Positions 1 to 6,952 of a DNA stretch of 24,957 nt are shown here, one piece after another. The position numbers and the translations under genes are program-made. The notes beneath the pieces were generated by a model that did no database searches, was not told the DNA's origin, and was given only the letters and a program-made list of their open reading frames with translations. The DNA lies in the NCBI GenBank assembly GCA_035695905.1, contig DASRRF010000673.1:1-24957 (forward strand), read 5' to 3'. The stretch comes from Micromonosporaceae bacterium. Its GTDB lineage: Bacteria; Actinomycetota; Actinomycetes; Mycobacteriales; Micromonosporaceae. Each line of letters starts with the position of its first letter. The stretch's first letter is position 1.

Positions 1-1413
1 GGTGGCTCCGACGGCTGCCCGACGTCCGGCGGTGAGAACGAGACGCAGGGCATGACGGCCGTGGTGGACTGGCTCAACGGCCGGGCGGCCGGGTTCGACC
101 CTTCGGGAGCCAGCGCGCAGGCCGGCTGGTCCACCGGCAAGGTCGGCATGATCGGCGTGTCGTACAACGGGACGCTGGCCAACGCGGTCGCGGCGACCGG
201 GGTGGCCGGCCTGGAGACGATCGTTCCGATCGCGTCCATCTCCAGCTGGTACGACTACTACCGGGCCAACGGCGGTGTGGTGGCGCCCGGCACGTTCCAG
301 GGCGAAGACCTGGACATCCTGGCCAAGGCGGTGCTCACCAGGGCCAACCCGGAGGTCTGCGCCGGGGTGATCGCGGCGCTCGAACAGAACCAGGATCGCG
401 AGACCGGCGACTACAGCCAGTTCTGGCACGAGCGCAACTACCTGCGCGGCGTGGACAACGTACGGGCCAGCGTCTTCGTGGTGCACGGGCTCAACGACTG
501 GAACGTCAAGACCATGCACTTTGGACAGTGGTGGGACGCGCTGGCTGCCCGCGGCGTACCGCGGAAGATCTGGCTGCACCAGGCGAACCACCAGGACCCG
601 TTCAACCTGCGGCGTACCGAGTGGCTGTCCACTTTGCACAGATGGTTCGACCAGTGGCTGTACGGCATCGACACCGGCATCATGACCGAGCCGATGGCCG
701 ACATCGAGACCGCGCCGACCCAGTGGCAGACCGCGGCGTCGTGGCCGCTGCCCGGAACCCGTACCGCGCCGATGTTCCTCGGGCCCGCGGCGGACGACCG
801 GCCCGGTACGCTCACCACGACGCCGAGCGGAATCGGCTCCCGACTGTCGTTTGTGGACGATCCGGCGCAGACCGCCGAGCAGCTGGCGGACAGCGAGCTG
901 ACTGCGGACCCGAACCGGCAGGTCTACCTGACCGCACCGCTGGCCACGCCGGTGCGGCTGTCGGGTACCCCGCGGGTCACCGTACGCGCCTCGCTGGACG
1001 GCCGGTCACCGTACCTGACCGCGCTGCTCGTGGACTACGGGACCGACGCCAGGTTCGCCGCGATCCGCCGACTCTCCGATGTGGACTGTATCGGCCCCGG
1101 CATCCCGGGTGACCCGGGTTGCTTCGCGCGCCGGGCGTATGTCACCGCGGTCACCCCGTACCAGATAGTCACCCGCGGCTGGCTCGACGTGCGCAACCGG
1201 GCCAACGCACGGGTGACCCAGCCGATCACGCCGGGCACCACCTACTCGTTCAGCTGGGAGCTGCAGCCCAACGACCACATCGTCGCGGCCGGACACCGGC
1301 TCGGCCTGGTACTCATCTCGACCGATCGCGACTACACCCTGCGGTACCCGGCCGGTACGGTGGTCAGCGTCCAGCTCGGCCTCAGCCACCTCCAGCTACC
1401 CGTGTCCGGGTAG
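1..1413 (+). CDS. pepX: Xaa-Pro dipeptidyl-peptidase (S15 / CocE-NonD family), 5' end outside window
   Basis: Frame is open from base 1 (GGSDGCPTSGGENETQGM...). Nucleophile motif GVSYNG, candidate Asp in GLNDWNV and His in HQANHQDP, C-terminal PepX-like beta domain (VTRGWLD...FSWELQPNDH). Confidence 0.85.
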   Translation, partial: GGSDGCPTSGGENETQGMTAVVDWLNGRAAGFDPSGASAQAGWSTGKVGMIGVSYNGTLANAVAATGVAGLETIVPIASISSWYDYYRANGGVVAPGTFQGEDLDILAKAVLTRANPEVCAGVIAALEQNQDRETGDYSQFWHERNYLRGVDNVRASVFVVHGLNDWNVKTMHFGQWWDALAARGVPRKIWLHQANHQDPFNLRRTEWLSTLHRWFDQWLYGIDTGIMTEPMADIETAPTQWQTAASWPLPGTRTAPMFLGPAADDRPGTLTTTPSGIGSRLSFVDDPAQTAEQLADSELTADPNRQVYLTAPLATPVRLSGTPRVTVRASLDGRSPYLTALLVDYGTDARFAAIRRLSDVDCIGPGIPGDPGCFARRAYVTAVTPYQIVTRGWLDVRNRANARVTQPITPGTTYSFSWELQPNDHIVAAGHRLGLVLISTDRDYTLRYPAGTVVSVQLGLSHLQLPVSG

Positions 1414-1452
1414 CGCTCGACCGGCGCACTGCCACGGTCGGAGCCGCCGACG

Positions 1453-1458
1453 TAGGAT
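1453..1458 (+). promoter_or_regulatory. Candidate sigma-70-type -10 element (TAGGAT) for the lipoprotein gene
   Basis: TAnnnT match 35 nt upstream of GTG 1493; the -35 match is weak. Confidence 0.3.
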
Positions 1459-1492
1459 TCGCGGCGACACCGTGCGTTCGAGGAGGCCGACT

Positions 1493-2086
1493 GTGCGCCG
1501 TACCATCGCAGCGATTGTCATGACCGCGACCATCGCGACGGCCGCCGCGTGCAACGCCGCGGGACCACCCACCCCGCCGAGAGGTCCGGATACCGGAACT
1601 CCGGGCACCGGCGTGCCGACCGCGTGGCCGCTGCCGGCCGATGCCTCCGCCGCGGCGGCCAAGGCCGGCCTGCAGATGCTCGGCGAGGAGAAGCTGACCG
1701 TGCACTACCATGCGCACCTGGACGTCATCGTGCGCGGCAACCGGATCCAGGTGCCCGCGTTCATCGGCATCGACCGGGCCAAGCAGAAGATCACCGCGCT
1801 GCACACCCATGACACCAGCGGGATCGTGCACATCGAGTCCGCCGATGACGTCCCGTTCACCCTCGGCCAGGTCTTCACCGAGTGGGGCCAGCCGCTGTCC
1901 ACCACCCAGCTCGGGCCGGTGACGGCGGCCGCGGGCGAGGTGGTCCGGGTGTACCGCAACGGCAACCAGACCAGCGACATGGGCGCCCTGCGGCTGGCCG
2001 CGCACGACGAGATCGTGGTCTGGCTCGGGCCGTCCGGCTCCATGCCCAACGTGCCGAAGGCCTATGACTTCCCGGCGGGCCTCTAG
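1493..2086 (+). CDS. Uncharacterised lipoprotein with HYHAH and HTHD..G..HIE histidine motifs
   Basis: AGGAGG at 1481-1486, 6 nt before GTG 1493 (preferred over the ORF-track start 1472). Signal peptide VRRTIAAIVMTATIATAAA-C ends in a lipobox-like Cys; Pro/Thr linker then a globular domain. Confidence 0.75.
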   Translation: MRRTIAAIVMTATIATAAACNAAGPPTPPRGPDTGTPGTGVPTAWPLPADASAAAAKAGLQMLGEEKLTVHYHAHLDVIVRGNRIQVPAFIGIDRAKQKITALHTHDTSGIVHIESADDVPFTLGQVFTEWGQPLSTTQLGPVTAAAGEVVRVYRNGNQTSDMGALRLAAHDEIVVWLGPSGSMPNVPKAYDFPAGL

Positions 2087-2622
2087 CGGGTACGCAGCCT
2101 ACAGTCGTGTTCCACCACGTCCGACACGCCGGGGCTGCTCTGGAAGCGGGCAATGACGATCCTGGCCGCGGCGAGATCCCGCACTGTGATCCGGTACGCG
2201 GACGGGAGGGTGTCGGGGTGCACGGAGGCGACCAGGTCGGGCGCGTCCTTGAACATCTCCTTGAAGTTCTCGTACGCCTGGTTCTTGGACTCGTACGCGA
2301 ACTGGATCACCTCCGGCATCCGGGCCAGCCCGGCGCCGCTGCCCTGGATCTGCTCCGGTGTCGCGTCCGGCTGAAAGAAAATGCTGACGTGGCAGCCGAT
2401 CGGCCGGGTGGCCAGGGTGTACTCGGCGGGTCGAAGGTGCCACCCGAGGATGCCGGCCGCGGCGGCGAGCACGACCGCCATTCCACCCGCCACCGCCAAC
2501 AGCATCCGGCGCCGGTGAAACCGGCGCATCCGGCCGGCCAGGTTTGCGTGGATCCGCTGCGGGTCGGGTGCCACGGCCGCGGCGCGGTCCAGCGCGGCCC
2601 GGATCAGGTCATCGATGGTCAT
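2083..2622 (-). CDS. Single-pass membrane protein, putative anti-sigma factor with an FtsX-like extracellular domain
   Basis: ATGA overlap with the upstream ECF gene. N-terminus DDLIRAALD..A, basic RRFHRRR, one TM segment, then VSIFF..ESKNQAYENFKEMFKDAPDLV...LPSAYRITV...PGVSDV, which resembles actinobacterial FtsX ectodomains. Confidence 0.7.
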   Translation of the reverse strand: MTIDDLIRAALDRAAAVAPDPQRIHANLAGRMRRFHRRRMLLAVAGGMAVVLAAAAGILGWHLRPAEYTLATRPIGCHVSIFFQPDATPEQIQGSGAGLARMPEVIQFAYESKNQAYENFKEMFKDAPDLVASVHPDTLPSAYRITVRDLAAARIVIARFQSSPGVSDVVEHDCRLRTR

Positions 2623-3131
2623 CCCCGCTCCTCGGGTACGGACGCGGTGGGCGTCAGGGCCATCGCGGCGCGCAGCGCGTTGAGCGCCCGCGCGCAGTGG
2701 CTACGTACGGTGGCCGGGGCACAGCCGAGCAGGTCGGCGATCTCCGGGTCGGACAGCCCGTCGTAGTAGCGCAACGCTATTGCGGCGCGCTGTTTCGGTG
2801 GCAGCGCGGCGATCCTGCGCAGCATCTCGTCCCGTTGGTCGAACTCTCCGGTCCGATCCGCGGCCGGCTCGGCACTGGCGTCGAGCGCGGCGTGGCCGAG
2901 CGGGATGACCCGCGCCGACCGGCGCCGCCGCCAGGACAGGAACTCGTTGAGCACCATGCGTTTGAGGTACGCCTCGGGTTGGTCGAGCTTGGCCACCTTG
3001 GTCCACCGGGACTGGGCCCGTACGAGTACCTCCTGCACGATGTCCTCGGCCAGGTACGGGTCGCAGGTGACCACTGAGGCGTACCGCACCAGCGCGCCGA
3101 GCCGGTGCCCGACGTACTCGTCGAACGTCAT
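2619..3131 (-). CDS. ECF RNA polymerase sigma factor (SigE family)
   Basis: FDEYV..LVRYA..AEDIVQEVL (region 2) and LPPKQRAAIALRYYDGLSDPEIADLLGCAPATVRSHCARAL (region 4). GAGGAGG precedes ATG 3131. Confidence 0.92.
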   Translation of the reverse strand: MTFDEYVGHRLGALVRYASVVTCDPYLAEDIVQEVLVRAQSRWTKVAKLDQPEAYLKRMVLNEFLSWRRRRSARVIPLGHAALDASAEPAADRTGEFDQRDEMLRRIAALPPKQRAAIALRYYDGLSDPEIADLLGCAPATVRSHCARALNALRAAMALTPTASVPEERG

Positions 3132-3173
3132 GTGGCCTCCTCGCACTGTTGCTCCTACAACGCGGCCGGCCGG

Positions 3174-4226
3174 TCAGATTGTGGAGTCCTGGCGCAGCAG
3201 CCACGCGATGGCGAGCGGGTAGCGGTACTCGATCATCGCGTGGGTGGCGTCGAACAGCTCGAAGTGGATCCGCTCGCCGGGTACCCCGGCGGCGCGTATG
3301 GCCTGGTGGAACGCTGCCGCCCCGAGGTCGAGGTGGTAGTCGTCGCGGTTGCCCGCGTCGATCCAGATCGCCCGCATCGAGCGCAGCGCCTCCGCGTACC
3401 GCGGCTCGGCGGCCATCCGCACCGGATCGCGGGCCAGCCAGCGCTGCCACACCTCGGGGATGATCCGGCCGGTCTCGTCGAACGGGATAAGCACGGTGCC
3501 GTCCGGCTCGGCGGAGTACGCGGCAGCGTAGGCGTACACCTCCAGCAGCTTGGCGTCGCTGTCCCGGGTACCGAAGATGCGGGAGCGCAGGTCGGCGAAG
3601 AACTTGTCGTACGAACCGTCGTAGCGGTCGCGCAGCAGCCGGGCCGCGGCGGCGAACATCGGTGGGGCGACGATCTCGAAGAGCGAGTCTCCGGCGTGCG
3701 TGGCGAACGCGCCGAACACATCCGGCCGCAGCATCGCGTTGATCATCGCGCCGTACCCGCCGCTGGACTTGCCGGTGATCGCCCGGTGGTCGCGGTCGGC
3801 GATGGTCCGGTACCGTTCGTCCACAAAGGACACGACATCCTGGCAGAGGTACGAGTGATAGTCTCCGGTACCCGGTGAGTCAAGGTACTGGCTGCCGCCG
3901 AGAGCGGTCCACGCGTCAACGTAGACGACAATCGCCGGCGGCGCGCCGTCGTCCGCCGCTTCACCGGCGGCGAACATCTGGTCGAGCAGCTCGGGGAACG
4001 GCTGGCGGAACGGCGTACGGTTGCGCCAGGTCGCCACGTGGCCGGTGTAGCCCTGGATCACGTACACGGCCGGGTAGCGCCGGCCGGGCTCGCTGTCGTA
4101 CCCCGGCGGCACGTATATCCACAGTGGACGCTCATGCGGGTCGCCGAGCGGGTTGCCGCGCAGGTGCCCGCTGACGATCACGTGTTCATCGAGCCGGCCG
4201 GCGAGATCGGTGGACCAGGGCAGCAT
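3174..4226 (-). CDS. Alpha/beta-hydrolase esterase (enterochelin-esterase-like)
   Basis: GNPLGDP, IYVPPGY, GKSSGG nucleophile elbow, candidate Asp (DAGNRDD) and His (DATH). TGATG coupling with dppA and GGAGG RBS. The 609-aa ORF-track entry is an upstream frame extension. Confidence 0.85.
   Translation of the reverse strand: MLPWSTDLAGRLDEHVIVSGHLRGNPLGDPHERPLWIYVPPGYDSEPGRRYPAVYVIQGYTGHVATWRNRTPFRQPFPELLDQMFAAGEAADDGAPPAIVVYVDAWTALGGSQYLDSPGTGDYHSYLCQDVVSFVDERYRTIADRDHRAITGKSSGGYGAMINAMLRPDVFGAFATHAGDSLFEIVAPPMFAAAARLLRDRYDGSYDKFFADLRSRIFGTRDSDAKLLEVYAYAAAYSAEPDGTVLIPFDETGRIIPEVWQRWLARDPVRMAAEPRYAEALRSMRAIWIDAGNRDDYHLDLGAAAFHQAIRAAGVPGERIHFELFDATHAMIEYRYPLAIAWLLRQDSTI
4117..4129. repeat. Dispersed palindrome, 1-mismatch copy
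   Basis: ATCCACAGTGGAC inside the esterase gene. Confidence 0.75.
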
Positions 4227-5053
4227 CAGTACGCCTCCGCGAGTGATCGGGTCAGGTAGACCAATGTAACGAACGCCGGGAACAGCCGCAGCGGCGCGTC
4301 GTCGCTCAACCGAACGGCCCGGCCGCCGGTGCGCTCGACGCCGCGCAGCCAGGTGGCCTGCTCCGCCATGTCCGGGCTGGCCAGGTCGATGTCGATGGTG
4401 ATGGGCAGCGCGAACTCGGGTGGGCTCAGCCGGTCTAGAGTAGACAGTGCACTGTGGACGCCGCCGCGGATCAGGTCCCGGGCGACGGTCGGGTGCAGGT
4501 GTTGTGCCGCGTACCGGCTGATGGACTCCTTGACCGCGATCTGCGTGATGCCAGGACAGAACCTGGCCGCCTCCGGCCCGACATGCTGGTCGCCGGTGAT
4601 GGCCGCGACCGGGACCCGGAAATGTGCGGCGACCAGCGCGTTCAGGCCGGACTCGCCGGCTTCCTGACCGTTGATCCGCACGTTGGTGACGGCCCGGGGG
4701 TTGTAGGTATGCGACAGCGCGCCCGGGGTAGCGATCGCGGCGTGGTAGCCGAGGAACACGATCGCGTCGTACGACGAGTCCAGCCCCTGCATCATGTAGA
4801 GCGGCTTGAACTTGCCGGACAGGTACGACGCCTGCGCATCCAACGCCTCCGGTGGCAGGTTGCGCATCACCGAGTGCGCGTCGTTCACGCAGATCTCGGT
4901 GAAGCCGGCGGCGTGCGCGCCCGCGATCGCGGCGTTCACCTCGCCGAGCAGCAGCGCGCGCCCGTGCGCGTAGTCGTCCCCGCCGGCCAGGCACTGCTCC
5001 CACGCCACGATGCCGGCGACACCCTCCATGTCCACCGAGATGAATACCTTCAT
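4226..5053 (-). CDS. dppA: M55-family D-aminopeptidase (DppA-like)
   Basis: N-terminus MKVFISVDMEGVAG (DxE metal ligands), NDAH, GYHA, HTY and ESGLN motifs. Confidence 0.92.
   Translation of the reverse strand: MKVFISVDMEGVAGIVAWEQCLAGGDDYAHGRALLLGEVNAAIAGAHAAGFTEICVNDAHSVMRNLPPEALDAQASYLSGKFKPLYMMQGLDSSYDAIVFLGYHAAIATPGALSHTYNPRAVTNVRINGQEAGESGLNALVAAHFRVPVAAITGDQHVGPEAARFCPGITQIAVKESISRYAAQHLHPTVARDLIRGGVHSALSTLDRLSPPEFALPITIDIDLASPDMAEQATWLRGVERTGGRAVRLSDDAPLRLFPAFVTLVYLTRSLAEAY
4447..4459. repeat. Dispersed palindrome, 1-mismatch copy
   Basis: GTGCACTGTGGAC inside dppA, preceded by a degenerate copy at 4433-4445. Confidence 0.75.
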
Positions 5054-5059
5054 CCCCGC

Positions 5060-5065
5060 AGCGTA
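5060..5065 (-). promoter_or_regulatory. -10 element TACGCT positioned for a leaderless dppA transcript
   Basis: TAnnnT hexamer 6 nt upstream of ATG 5053; no SD-like sequence in the 16-nt gap. Confidence 0.5.
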
Positions 5066-5069
5066 TTGG

Positions 5070-6173
5070 TTAACCGCTCACCAGCGTGGCCGGGCCGCCG
5101 AGAAACCGGCCGATGTCGGTCACCTCGGCAGCGAGCCGGCCGTTGGTTCCGCGGGGGAGCGCGGTGAACGGCTCGACCCGCACCCGCAGCGAGCCGGCCT
5201 TGCGGTCCACCCGCCAGGTACCGGCGACCCGGCCGTCGACCAGCACCGCCGGCGTGATGATGCCGCCGCCGGCCTGGATCCTTTTCGCGTATGCCGGATC
5301 CAGGGTGAAGTCCCGGCTGCCGAACCCGAGCAGGTACTCGTCGAACTGGCCGAGCAGGCGGACCACAGGCTCGGCCGGCGCGTCAGGGTCCACAGTGGAC
5401 GGTAGGTAGGCCGGCTCGCCGGCCACGCTCACCTCGGTGTGGTCCGCGGCGACCAGCCCGAACCCGGTACGCGCGCGGCCGATCGGCAGACCGGACCACG
5501 CGGCGAAGTCCCGGGCGGTCGCCGGCCCGTGCCCGGCGAGGTACCGGCCGGCCAGCTCGGCGACCGCGGTGTCCGGGTCGAGCACCGGGCCGGCCGGGGT
5601 ACCCAGCCACTCGTCCAGCAGTACGTAGCTGGGGCCGGGCAGCTCCGGTCCGCGGCAGATCAGCCCGCGCATCGCCGCGTACCCGAACAGGTGGGCCGGT
5701 GCCTGGGTCGCGGGGTCGATCCGTACGCCCTGCTCGGCGATCCGCGCAACGAGCTCGGCGCGGGCCAGCGGCGGCGAGCCGGCGAGCACCGTGGCGATCG
5801 CCGCGAGCCCGCGCTCGCACACCTCATCGGTGAGGTGCAGCTCCTGGCGGCGCCGCCGGCCGGCGGCCGCGAAGATCGGCCCGAGCAGCGCCACCATCCA
5901 GCGCACGTCCGCCGCGGCCAGCATGTGCAGCGTGCCGCGCATCGCCCAGGTACGCACCACGGCCCGATCGTCGTTGATCGCCCGGCTCACGTCGTCCGCG
6001 GTGAGCCCGGCGGTCCGCGCCCGTACCGCGAGCCGGGCGGCCGCGATCGACTGCGCCTGCACCGCACCGACCCGAGCCACCGCGTCCGGCACCCGTACCG
6101 GCCGCGGACCGCACAGCAGCTGCGCCCGCATCCGCAGGGTGCGTACCCGGTCGACGGCGAGGTCGCGGCTCAT
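5070..6173 (-). CDS. AlkZ/YcaQ-family (HTH_42) winged-helix DNA glycosylase-like protein
   Basis: VGAVQAQ (QxQ catalytic motif), RTWAMRGTLH, YLAGHGPAT..DFAAWSGL, LLGQFDEYLLG, VLVDGRVAGTW. Start ATG 6173 preferred; GTG 6215 is the alternative. Confidence 0.85.
   Translation of the reverse strand: MSRDLAVDRVRTLRMRAQLLCGPRPVRVPDAVARVGAVQAQSIAAARLAVRARTAGLTADDVSRAINDDRAVVRTWAMRGTLHMLAAADVRWMVALLGPIFAAAGRRRRQELHLTDEVCERGLAAIATVLAGSPPLARAELVARIAEQGVRIDPATQAPAHLFGYAAMRGLICRGPELPGPSYVLLDEWLGTPAGPVLDPDTAVAELAGRYLAGHGPATARDFAAWSGLPIGRARTGFGLVAADHTEVSVAGEPAYLPSTVDPDAPAEPVVRLLGQFDEYLLGFGSRDFTLDPAYAKRIQAGGGIITPAVLVDGRVAGTWRVDRKAGSLRVRVEPFTALPRGTNGRLAAEVTDIGRFLGGPATLVSG
5388..5400. repeat. Dispersed palindrome GTCCACWGTGGAC, exact copy
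   Basis: GTCCACAGTGGAC inside the AlkZ-family gene. Confidence 0.85.
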
Positions 6174-6180
6174 GCGGATG

Positions 6181-6186
6181 AGTCTG
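6181..6186 (-). promoter_or_regulatory. Candidate -10 (CAGACT) for a leaderless AlkZ-family transcript
   Basis: CAnnnT variant 7 nt upstream of ATG 6173; no SD visible. Confidence 0.3.
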
Positions 6187-6247
6187 CGGCGAAGTTGCCG
6201 GATGTGGGCGAGCACACGCCGGGCCTAGCGCCCCGGCGCGGTGACAT

Positions 6248-6952
6248 TCACTGCGGGCCGGCGGCGCGTACCGTCAACGTGGTCCACGCGCCGAGATAGA
6301 TGGTGTCGCCGTCGCCGACCGGGATCGGCACGTGCGACTCGATCGGCTCGGTGGCCGGGTCGTTGACGTATGTTCCGTTGGCCGAGTCCAGGTCGACCAC
6401 CGCCCAGGAGTGGTCGGGCTGGGCCAGCAGCAGCGCATGCAACCGGGAGACGCCGGGGTCCTCGGGTGGGCCGACGAGATCGATGTCCGGGTAGATCCCC
6501 CGGGACCGGCTCTGCCGGCCGATCGTCACCCGCTCGCCGCTGAGCGGGAAGCGGCGCTCCGGAACGAATCTGGGGTACGCGAGCAGCTCGGCATCGGCGC
6601 CGCCCTGGGCCCGGATGATGTCGAAGTACGCCCGATCGGCGCCCACCACGATCTGCCATCCTGTGTTCGTCGGGGTCGTGGATGGCGCCGGCGGGGCGGC
6701 CGGGGCTCCACCCAGCGACGCGGCGACGAAGTCGTACCCGTCCTGCTCGCAGAATCGACCGGTACGCGGCATGCCGCACTGCGGGCACGGCGTCTGCTCG
6801 GCCACCGGTTCGCCGGCTCCGGTCGGTGCGGGCGGGGCGGCGGGCGAGCCGGTAGCAGGGGCGGCGGGCGGCGGTGTGCCGTCCATCCGGGCACCGCAGA
6901 CGTCGCAGTAGTCACCGGTCGCTGAGTCGTGGCCCTTGGGACACGTGGCCAT
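6248..6952 (-). CDS. FHA-domain protein with two N-terminal Zn-ribbons
   Basis: CPKGH..YCDVCG and CPQCG..FCEQDG; FHA signature IGR...VSRLHA...DLDSANGT. AAGGAG RBS. Confidence 0.9.
   Translation of the reverse strand: MATCPKGHDSATGDYCDVCGARMDGTPPPAAPATGSPAAPPAPTGAGEPVAEQTPCPQCGMPRTGRFCEQDGYDFVAASLGGAPAAPPAPSTTPTNTGWQIVVGADRAYFDIIRAQGGADAELLAYPRFVPERRFPLSGERVTIGRQSRSRGIYPDIDLVGPPEDPGVSRLHALLLAQPDHSWAVVDLDSANGTYVNDPATEPIESHVPIPVGDGDTIYLGAWTTLTVRAAGPQ

What the first reader, a model, noticed from the sequence alone, without database searches (positions are those of the whole stretch)
2083..3131. ECF sigma factor coupled to an anti-sigma-like protein whose sensor is a stand-alone FtsX ectodomain
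Seen: a SigE-family gene overlaps (ATGA) a 179-aa single-TM protein with a short cytoplasmic helical N-terminus, typical of ECF partners. Its outside domain reads like the FtsX large extracellular loop and is bracketed by two Cys (GCHV...HDC). There is no ftsE and none of the other FtsX TM helices. Established knowledge: the FtsX ectodomain binds and activates peptidoglycan hydrolases (RipC, PcsB, EnvC, CwlO). Inference: the domain has been repurposed as a sensor or decoy that reports hydrolase or cell-wall status to an ECF regulon.
Basis: partly seen in the sequence, partly recalled or inferred. Interest (0 to 1): 0.65.

Follow-up and report, generated by a model that had tools for sequence, protein, structure and literature searches.

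The report
Sigma factor partner with FtsX ectodomain
A stress-type (ECF) sigma factor gene is coupled to a small membrane protein whose outside part is a copy of the cell-division protein FtsX's hydrolase-docking domain. The pairing recurs in many actinomycetes and suggests an undescribed link between cell-wall-cutting enzymes and gene regulation.

Summary
On the minus strand, an ECF sigma gene (2619-3131) overlaps by ATGA a 179-aa gene (2083-2622). That protein has a short cytoplasmic helix, one membrane helix and one FtsX extracellular domain (Pfam E 5.6e-19). The AlphaFold model's best PDB matches are all FtsX ectodomains. The real ftsEX lies on another contig.

The pairing is conserved:
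- The closest homologue (44% identical) has the orthologous sigma (66%) upstream with the same ATGA overlap.
- All 24 best full-length relatives in 24 other genomes of the same family (probably Micromonosporaceae) sit next to an ECF sigma gene, 23 of them in the reverse gene order.

Three new points:
- The flanking Cys pair is specific to stand-alone domains (41/107 against 0/33 in true FtsX).
- The hydrolase-binding X-lobe is 72% identical to the host's own FtsX, against 24% for the rest of the domain.
- The N-terminal module recurs in other ECF partners with different ectodomains.

Most likely this is an anti-sigma-type sensor that binds the same coiled-coil partner as FtsX. No binding was tested and no canonical anti-sigma domain was detected. 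No paper describes it, and databases call such proteins "FtsX extracellular domain-containing". First readers of this scan noted similar pairs on other DNA. I rate it a new variant of a known kind.

The parts
2619..3131 (-). ECF (SigE-family) sigma factor gene, 170 aa from the ATG at 3131. The open frame extends to a GTG at 3146.
   Evidence: Pfam Sigma70_r2 and Sigma70_r4_2. TIGR02937 above its cut-off, TIGR02983 139.6 bits against 141.55. GAGGAGG Shine-Dalgarno before the ATG at 3131. 66% identical orthologue in L099.
2083..2622 (-). 179-aa single-pass membrane protein: N-terminal cytoplasmic helix, TM helix and FtsX extracellular domain. Anti-sigma-like partner.
   Evidence: ORF. Pfam FtsX_ECD E 5.6e-19. 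AF2 model mean pLDDT 84. Fold search top hits are FtsX ECDs.
2619..2622 (-). ATGA stop/start overlap, indicating translational coupling of sigma and partner.
   Evidence: Sequence. The same overlap is present in the closest homologous locus L099.
2512..2622 (-). Codons 1-37: cytoplasmic N-terminal module, made of an amphipathic helix at residues 3-17, a second helix, and the Arg-rich RRFHRRR stretch.
   Evidence: AF2 helices H3-17 and H21-42, pLDDT 91-95 for residues 1-20. Homologous N-termini occur in other ECF-adjacent proteins of the same genome and of relatives. 53% identity to P0016 here against 30% in the TM and linker.
2443..2511 (-). Codons 38-60: the single transmembrane helix.
   Evidence: Hydropathy peak at residues 41-59. 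Positive charges on the N-terminal side imply an N-in topology (inference).
2107..2394 (-). Codons 77-172: FtsX extracellular domain (Porter core plus X-lobe).
   Evidence: Pfam PF18075. pLDDT about 97. 4n8n_C TM 0.76 normalised to the target. The profile hits 4n8n at E 3.7e-12. 41% ungapped identity to the genome's own FtsX ECD.
2194..2289 (-). Codons 112-143: X-lobe (helical lobe), the partner-binding part of FtsX ectodomains.
   Evidence: 23/32 identical to the own FtsX, against 16/66 for the rest of the domain. F82, F124, L130 and L139 align with the Mtb Phe cluster F61, F110, F113 and F122 that contacts RipC.
2392..2394 (-). Cys77 codon, immediately before strand 1 of the domain.
   Evidence: Sequence. 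Flanking Cys pairs are enriched in stand-alone ECDs.
2101..2103 (-). Cys174 codon, two residues after the last strand of the domain.
   Evidence: Sequence. Same statistics as for Cys77.

Best explanation
The two genes form an ECF sigma / membrane-partner module of the anti-sigma type.

The partner is anchored N-in by one transmembrane helix. Its roughly 37-residue cytoplasmic N-terminus is a conserved acidic amphipathic helix followed by an Arg-rich stretch. This is the part expected to hold the sigma factor (inferred). Its extracytoplasmic part is a single FtsX ectodomain freed from the FtsX permease. The two ends of the domain are probably stapled by a Cys77-Cys174 disulfide, taking the place of the two membrane helices that hold them together in FtsX (inferred).

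The domain keeps the X-lobe and the hydrophobic cluster with which FtsX grips the coiled coil of its peptidoglycan hydrolase or activator (RipC, EnvC, PcsB). That lobe also stays closest to the host's own FtsX. The most likely input is therefore the same coiled-coil partner. RipC-like coiled-coil NlpC/P60 proteins are encoded in this genome. Occupancy of the ectodomain would change the stability or conformation of the partner and so release or retain the sigma factor. This would couple the state of the FtsEX-hydrolase axis to an ECF regulon.

Shown here: the gene pair, the fold, conservation of the pairing, modularity of the N-terminus, enrichment of the Cys pair, and retention of the X-lobe.

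Inferred: sigma binding, the disulfide, the ligand, and the direction of signalling.

My odds: sigma-partner module with an FtsX-ECD outside domain, about 0.85. The partner acts as an anti-sigma factor, about 0.65. Its ligand is the FtsX partner protein, about 0.4.
For: Domain and fold:
- Pfam FtsX_ECD, E 5.6e-19.
- AF2 model with pLDDT about 97 over residues 77-172.
- Foldseek top hits are all FtsX ectodomains: 4n8n, 6hee, 6tpi, 8idb.
- The family profile hits Mtb FtsX at E 3.7e-12.

Conserved pairing:
- ATGA overlap in the window.
- The closest homologue P0016 has the orthologous sigma (66% identical) upstream with the same overlap.
- All 24 best full-length matches in other genomes have an ECF sigma gene adjacent on the same strand, in either gene order. 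In most of the reverse-order loci no other same-strand gene follows the sigma that could be its partner.

N-terminal module:
- It recurs in four other ECF-adjacent proteins of this genome (contigs C229, C266, C496, C695) and in relatives, with unrelated C-termini.
- 15 of 23 family members weakly hit the CU044_5270 N-terminus and 7 of 23 hit an NCBIfam anti-sigma model.
- It is better conserved than the TM and linker between the window protein and P0016.
- Casas-Pastor et al. report putative one-TM anti-sigma factors without Pfam anti-sigma domains in actinobacterial ECF groups (PMC7826278).

X-lobe:
- 23/32 identical to the own FtsX against 16/66 for the Porter part. This is the top value among 23 FtsX sequences, tied with the same-genus FtsX.
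- In 15 genomes the X-lobe is closer to the same genome's FtsX than to the mean of other FtsX in 14 cases, against 9 of 15 for the Porter part.
- The four positions of the RipC-binding Phe cluster stay aromatic or aliphatic.

Cys pair: flanking Cys on both sides in 41/107 domains of this architecture and 0/33 true FtsX. Co-occurrence odds ratio 12, p 2e-8.

Candidate ligands: coiled-coil NlpC/P60 genes in the same genome.
Against: - No recognised anti-sigma domain (zf-HC2, RskA and the like) is detected. The N-terminal profile has no relative among solved structures.
- The cytoplasmic part is much shorter than a class I anti-sigma domain.
- The Arg-rich stretch plus hydrophobic segment weakly resembles Tat signal peptides.
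- In 23 of 25 family loci the partner gene lies upstream of sigma, which is less usual for anti-sigma genes.
- The X-lobe is also the most conserved part of FtsX in general. The own-genome excess is not independent across congeneric genomes: 6 of 7 genera are positive.
- The same domain occurs in lipoproteins and secreted tandem forms with no sigma nearby, so the domain itself is not tied to signalling.
- The only other genome of the same genus searched (94% complete) gave no full-length match.
- No promoter or regulon could be defined.
Confidence: 0.6

Rival explanations
1. The partner is not an anti-sigma factor. It is a sigma-co-expressed effector: a membrane-tethered decoy ectodomain that titrates the hydrolase or activator away from FtsEX when the ECF regulon is on, damping cell-wall cleavage under stress. 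Sigma activity would be controlled elsewhere.
For: No canonical anti-sigma domain and a very short cytoplasmic part. The X-lobe is retained and tracks the host FtsX. Sigma-less lipoprotein and secreted forms of the same domain exist and can only act as binders. The partner-then-sigma gene order in 23 loci fits a co-transcribed effector equally well.
Against: The N-terminal cytoplasmic helix is conserved and is shared with partners of other ECF sigmas that carry unrelated ectodomains. That is hard to explain if only the outside domain matters. Adjacency holds in 25 of 25 loci in both gene orders, and in most of the reverse-order loci no other same-strand candidate anti-sigma gene follows the sigma.
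Confidence: 0.2
2. The disulfide-bracketed domain is a thiol-redox or folding sensor. Reduction or failed oxidation of Cys77-Cys174 would destabilise the ectodomain, lead to its proteolysis and free the sigma factor, so reporting extracytoplasmic oxidative-folding stress rather than hydrolase status.
For: Paired Cys flanking the domain are specific to stand-alone forms and co-occur strongly. Single-pass anti-sigma factors are commonly inactivated by proteolysis after destabilisation of the outside domain (established knowledge).
Against: Only about 38% of domains of this architecture have both Cys. Sigma-less lipoprotein forms have them too, which points to a structural staple.
Confidence: 0.1
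3. The N-terminus is a long Tat or Sec signal peptide, and the protein is an exported, cleaved FtsX-ECD protein that merely neighbours a sigma gene.
For: The RRFHRRR stretch followed by an Ala/Gly-rich hydrophobic segment. Weak profile hits to Tat signal regions (MelC, TRAP binding proteins; tat_substr and formate_TAT in single members).
Against: The segment before the Arg run is a conserved, confidently predicted amphipathic helix, unlike signal-peptide n-regions. The hydrophobic stretch is about 22 residues, which is TM length. Strict adjacency to ECF sigma genes.
Confidence: 0.07

Closest known systems
FtsX extracellular domain of the FtsEX complex (M. tuberculosis FtsEX-RipC, PDB 4N8N/8IDB/8IDC; E. 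coli FtsX-EnvC 6TPI; S. pneumoniae FtsX-PcsB 6HE6)
   Same: Same fold, a Porter core plus a helical X-lobe. Significant profile match. The hydrophobic positions that bind the hydrolase coiled coil are retained. 41% identity to the host's own FtsX ectodomain.
   Different: No TM2-TM4, no FtsX permease domain and no ftsE neighbour, so no ATPase-driven mechanotransmission. The domain is a C-terminal ectodomain on a single anchor rather than a loop between two helices. It is flanked by a Cys pair absent from true FtsX. It is encoded with an ECF sigma.
Single-pass ECF anti-sigma factors, in particular the 'putative anti-sigma factors' without Pfam anti-sigma domains in actinobacterial ECF groups (clade of ECF38, ECF39, ECF51 and ECF222; Casas-Pastor et al. 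2021, PMC7826278)
   Same: Adjacent to and translationally coupled with an ECF sigma. One TM helix, with a short conserved cytoplasmic N-terminus shared across partners of related sigmas.
   Different: The outside domain is an FtsX ectodomain, which I did not find described for any anti-sigma factor in the literature searched. The paper's supplementary tables were not available. I did not assign the sigma to a numbered ECF group.
Class II short anti-sigma factors such as CnrY (from my own knowledge; CnrY-like factors are mentioned in PMC7826278)
   Same: A precedent that a cytoplasmic segment of a few dozen residues can suffice to bind an ECF sigma.
   Different: No detectable sequence relationship. 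CnrY works with a separate sensor protein (CnrX), whereas here the sensor domain is on the same chain.
NCBIfam CU044_5270 family (NF038083) and NF052375 anti-sigma factor
   Same: Weak similarity confined to the N-terminal cytoplasmic and TM part (E 0.003 and 0.018; 15/23 and 7/23 family members).
   Different: Scores are far below the family cut-offs. The C-terminal domains are unrelated.

Membership tests
ECF (group 4) sigma-70 factors | Regions sigma2 and sigma4 present, no region 3 or 1.1, small size | tested here: met
   Sigma70_r2 (residues 16-77) and Sigma70_r4_2 (106-158) only, 170-175 aa. TIGR02937 sigma70-ECF scores 67.6 bits against a cut-off of 42.9.
SigE-family sigma factors (TIGR02983) | Score above the curated cut-off of the subfamily model | tested here: inconclusive
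   139.6 bits against a cut-off of 141.55, over the full model length. It is the best-scoring model but just under threshold.
Pfam FtsX_ECD (PF18075) | Full-length match above the gathering score, and the Porter plus X-lobe fold | tested here: met
   69 bits against 23.5, profile positions 2-96 of 96. AF2 pLDDT about 97. Top structural hits are FtsX ectodomains, TM 0.66-0.76 normalised to the target.
FtsX cell-division permease (FtsEX) | Four TM helices with the C-terminal FtsX permease domain (PF02687) | tested here: not met
   One hydrophobic helix only. No PF02687 hit. FtsX_actino scores 45 bits against a cut-off of 250.
FtsX cell-division permease (FtsEX) | Encoded next to ftsE | tested here: not met
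   The neighbours are a sigma gene and a convergent lipoprotein gene. The genuine ftsE-ftsX pair is on contig C768.
Membrane-bound ECF anti-sigma factors | Gene adjacent to and co-transcribed with the cognate ECF sigma, conserved across relatives | tested here: met
   ATGA overlap. Same arrangement in L099. Adjacent on the same strand in 25 of 25 family loci.
Membrane-bound ECF anti-sigma factors | Recognisable cytoplasmic anti-sigma domain (class I four-helix/zf-HC2, RskA-type and similar) | tested here: not met
   No Pfam anti-sigma family at E<=1. No HxxxCxxC motif in the window protein or in 176 relatives. Only weak NCBIfam hits, at E 0.003-0.018. No PDB relative of the N-terminal profile.
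Membrane-bound ECF anti-sigma factors | Physical binding and inhibition of the sigma factor | not testable with these tools
   The structure tool folds single chains only. No complex prediction or experiment was possible.
Tat signal peptides | Twin-arginine motif (S/T-R-R-x-F-L-K), a moderately hydrophobic h-region and a cleavage site | tested here: inconclusive
   RRFH followed by a 22-residue hydrophobic stretch. Weak profile similarity to Tat leaders. No dedicated predictor was available.

The most novel reading that the evidence does not exclude
The sigma-linked ectodomain competes with FtsX for the coiled coil of a RipC-like hydrolase. It would thereby report to an ECF regulon how much of the hydrolase is not engaged by the divisome's FtsEX. 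An anti-sigma factor would then have as its ligand a peptidoglycan-hydrolase regulator protein, forming a transcriptional checkpoint on cell-wall cleavage. Tandem-domain relatives would mimic the FtsX dimer in a single chain.
Probability: 0.3. Interest if true: 0.8.

Novelty: new variant of a known kind. Interest (0 to 1): 0.55.

Why it matters
FtsEX is the conserved switch that turns on cell-wall hydrolases during division in E. coli, pneumococcus, Bacillus and M. tuberculosis. Its ectodomain has been discussed only as part of that machine. Here the same domain has been released from the transporter and reused many times in actinomycetes: on sigma-factor partners, on lipoproteins and as secreted tandem repeats. 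It keeps the hydrolase-gripping lobe.

If the sigma-linked form binds the same hydrolase coiled coil, it gives a concrete and testable route by which cells could sense or buffer hydrolase activity. It would also add a new sensor domain to the ECF repertoire. A practical point is that databases label these proteins 'permease-like cell division protein FtsX' or 'hypothetical'. That is misleading for genome annotation.

Tried and rejected
This includes the tandem-domain forms such as P0018.
With the single protein it found only one true ftsX-type locus in genome contigs.
- A class-wide search with tandem-domain protein P0018 at E<=1e-15 returned nothing and is uninformative.
- A FastTree of 332 ectodomains on 96 columns was poorly resolved. 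Only the window + P0016 pair is supported. Whether sigma-linked domains arose once or several times from ftsX is open.
- The sigma-70 promoter and terminator scan found nothing at 1400-6400. I saw no convincing ECF-type -35/-10 by eye upstream of the sigma gene. No regulon was predicted.
- The PDB search with the N-terminal profile gave no anti-sigma relative.
- A search for zf-HC2 motifs among 176 relatives found none. The zf-HC2 plus FtsX-ECD combinations noted by earlier first readers could not be confirmed here.
- Literature searches for FtsX ectodomain with anti-sigma or ECF, for PF18075 and for 'FtsX extracellular domain-containing' found no description of this architecture. The supplementary tables of the ECF reclassification paper are not held.
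- I considered and rejected the idea that this is a truncated or fragmented ftsX. The gene has its own start, a different N-terminus, a stop after the domain and conserved homologues of the same length.
Full report
**1. What is in the window**

Both genes are on the minus strand. The sigma ORF runs 2619-3146 from a GTG. An ATG at 3131 preceded by GAGGAGG is the likely start, giving 170 aa. The protein has only Sigma70_r2 and Sigma70_r4_2. It passes the general ECF model TIGR02937 (67.6 bits, cut-off 42.9). Its best match is the actinobacterial SigE-family model TIGR02983, at 139.6 bits against a cut-off of 141.55.

The sigma stop codon overlaps, as ATGA at 2619-2622, the start of a 179-aa ORF (2083-2622). 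That protein has one hydrophobic helix at about residues 38-60, preceded by RRFHRRR. Residues 78-169 match Pfam FtsX_ECD (PF18075) end to end, at E 5.6e-19. Cys77 and Cys174 flank the domain.

It is not FtsX. It has no permease domain and scores 45 bits against a cut-off of 250 on the actinobacterial FtsX model. The assembly is a metagenome-type genome of 840 contigs, 71% complete, and it has a normal ftsE-ftsX pair on contig C768.

**2. Fold**

I folded the protein with an alignment of 48 relatives. The AlphaFold2 model has mean pLDDT 84, with about 97 over residues 77-172 and 91-95 over residues 1-20, which cover most of the first N-terminal helix (residues 3-17). The TM helix and linker are weak.

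Foldseek against the PDB puts only FtsX ectodomains at the top. They are M. tuberculosis 4N8N (E 1.4e-5, TM 0.76 normalised to the target), S. pneumoniae ECD1, the EnvC-bound E. coli domain 6TPI, and the cryo-EM FtsEX complexes. A profile of the family also finds 4N8N and 8IDB by sequence, at E about 4e-12.

**3. Is the pairing conserved?**

The exhaustive representative search gave 1138 relatives at E<=1e-3. The nearest is P0016 (184 aa, 44% identical, full length). It lies on a 1.1-kb metagenome contig (L099). There the upstream gene is the orthologous sigma (66% identical), with the same ATGA overlap.

In 200 other genomes of the window's taxonomic family, at least 30 genomes from at least 11 genera have a full-length match to the family profile A1. 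The family is probably Micromonosporaceae. One member, P0167, is a Virgisporangium 'hypothetical protein' that UniRef calls 'FtsX extracellular domain-containing'.

I examined the 25 best full-length loci, the window's own among them. All 25 have an ECF sigma gene adjacent on the same strand. The gene order differs, however. The window and one other locus (L032) have sigma then partner. The other 23 have partner then sigma, often abutting or overlapping, and in most of them the sigma is followed by a gene on the opposite strand or by no clear gene, so no other candidate partner is seen there.

Across the class, 300 sampled genomes almost always show a single match, which is ftsX. Extra copies are confined to a few families. 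The only other genome of the same genus gave no full-length match.

The tallies include some unpublished genomes (G031, G081, G121, G153, G213, G222, G239, G245, G247, G258, G476). No locus-level statement here rests on them.

**4. The N-terminus**

The first roughly 70 residues comprise an acidic amphipathic helix, a Pro-containing loop, an Arg run and the TM helix. The same module is found in at least four other proteins of this genome (contigs C229, C266, C496 and C695, in ORFs of 173-454 aa). Each lies directly downstream of an ECF sigma and has an unrelated C-terminus. The same holds in relatives.

Weak NCBIfam hits to the CU044_5270 N-terminus (15 of 23 members) and to an anti-sigma model (7 of 23) point the same way. 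Between the window protein and P0016, the cytoplasmic part is 53% identical, the TM and linker 30%, and the ectodomain 46%.

No canonical anti-sigma domain, zinc motif or solved relative was found. The ECF reclassification paper notes that most putative anti-sigma factors match no Pfam anti-sigma domain. It also notes that a clade of actinobacterial groups (ECF38, ECF39, ECF51, ECF222) shares one type of cytoplasmic region (PMC7826278). The module fits that description, but I did not assign the sigma to a numbered group.

A weak resemblance to Tat leaders is kept as a minor rival.

**5. The ectodomain keeps the business end of FtsX**

In FtsX the helical X-lobe grips the coiled coil of EnvC, PcsB or RipC. 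In M. tuberculosis the contact is a Phe cluster of F61, F110, F113 and F122 (PMC11627006). By the profile alignment these map to window residues F82, F124, L130 and L139. The host's own FtsX has the same residues at all four positions, F, F, L and L. All four positions remain aromatic or aliphatic across 56 sigma-type stand-alone domains.

The window's X-lobe (residues 112-143) is 23/32 identical to the host FtsX, whereas the Porter core is 16/66. Among 23 FtsX sequences of the family, the host and same-genus FtsX are the closest for the X-lobe but not for the core.

I extended this to 15 genomes that have both a sigma-linked domain and FtsX. The X-lobe is closer to the same genome's FtsX than to the mean of the others in 14 cases (mean excess 8.9 points, rank 1 in 7). 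For the core the figure is 9 of 15 (1.6 points). Congeneric genomes are not independent, and by genus the count is 6 of 7 positive. I therefore treat this as suggestive evidence of co-evolution with a shared ligand, or of partial gene conversion.

Candidate ligands exist. The genome encodes a 323-aa protein with a signal peptide, a coiled coil and an NlpC/P60 domain. It also encodes a larger coiled-coil NlpC/P60 protein.

**6. The cysteine bracket**

Among 176 representative relatives, none of 33 true FtsX has a Cys near either end of the domain. In the N-cytoplasmic + TM + ECD architecture, 41 of 107 domains have Cys at both ends. The two co-occur with odds ratio 12, p 2e-8.

The first and last strands of the domain lead to TM1 and TM2 in FtsX, so they should lie side by side. 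A disulfide staple replacing the two helices is therefore the simplest reading. I could not measure the distance because model coordinates are not exposed.

**7. The wider family**

The same census shows 69 proteins with the short N-terminus, a TM helix and one or two ectodomains. It also shows 41 proteins with a signal peptide or lipobox and one or two ectodomains, and 33 without a detected TM helix. The window ectodomain's closest match among the 40 relative genomes (39% identity, L004) is a lipoprotein with no sigma nearby.

The ESM Atlas lists many clusters of 183-196-aa 'FtsX extracellular domain-containing' proteins from Actinomycetota. First readers of this scan noted ECF sigma plus FtsX-ECD-like partners on at least five other genomes. 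Those notes are unchecked, and two claim a zf-HC2 N-terminus. I found tandem-domain relatives but could not read their gene context, and I found no zf-HC2 forms among the nearest 176.

**8. Interpretation**

The best-supported reading is an ECF sigma / anti-sigma-type pair whose sensor is a liberated, disulfide-stapled FtsX ectodomain that still binds the FtsX partner.

Rivals are:
- a co-expressed decoy that is not an anti-sigma factor;
- a redox or folding sensor that uses the Cys pair;
- an exported protein whose N-terminus is a signal peptide.

No promoter or regulon could be defined. The genes immediately upstream on the same strand are an M55 D-aminopeptidase and a PF00756 esterase. They may be co-transcribed, but I did not test whether that context is conserved.

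**9. Novelty**

ECF sigma / single-pass partner pairs are a known kind, and the FtsX ectodomain is a known fold. The combination, its conserved Cys bracket and the X-lobe tracking are not described in the literature I could search. I rate it a new variant of a known kind, of moderate interest. It is a clear, testable hypothesis linking FtsEX-type hydrolase control to transcription, but the function is not yet demonstrated.

Noticed in passing
window 1472-2086 (+): 204-aa predicted lipoprotein (lipobox IATAAAC) with no Pfam or NCBIfam match. It is convergent with the partner gene, and the 3' ends of the two genes overlap by 4 nt (2083-2086).
   Followed up: partly
window 3174-5053 (-): An M55 D-aminopeptidase gene (4226-5053) slightly overlaps a PF00756 esterase gene (3174 to about 4232), which ends 42 nt before the sigma start. 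No terminator-like site lies in between, so the four genes may form one operon. A D-aminopeptidase next to a putative cell-wall-sensing sigma module is suggestive, but I did not check whether this context is conserved.
   Followed up: partly
own genome: L055 (C229), L056 (C266), L057 (C496), L059 (C695): At least four further ECF sigma genes, each followed by a membrane protein that shares the same short N-terminal helix, Arg-run and TM module but has a different, unidentified ectodomain (ORFs of 173-454 aa). This looks like a modular family of sigma partners in this organism.
   Followed up: partly
L023-L047 (relatives of the same family): In 23 of 25 loci the FtsX-ECD partner gene lies upstream of the ECF sigma gene (partner then sigma), the reverse of the window's order. 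This N-terminal subtype starts MDxxLRxLFxRALxDEP.
   Followed up: yes
proteins P0017-P0163: Many actinobacterial proteins carry two tandem FtsX ectodomains behind the same kind of short N-terminus and TM helix, or behind a signal peptide or lipobox. A tandem pair could mimic the two ectodomains of the FtsX dimer.
   Followed up: partly
L004 (G016:C1:7913944-7917405): The window ectodomain's closest match among the 40 relative genomes searched (39% identity) is a lipoprotein-type stand-alone FtsX ectodomain (signal peptide, LVAC lipobox) with no sigma gene within 1.5 kb.
   Followed up: yes
L096 (G000:C328) and L097 (G000:C352): Two RipC-like genes encode a coiled coil plus an NlpC/P60 domain. 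The larger one continues into two repeats of about 90 aa that look fibronectin-type-III-like, followed by a Pro/Thr-rich tail.
   Followed up: no
window 5070-6215 (-): An AlkZ-like DNA glycosylase gene (PF06224, E 2.5e-65) lies 16 nt upstream of the M55 peptidase gene on the same strand.
   Followed up: no
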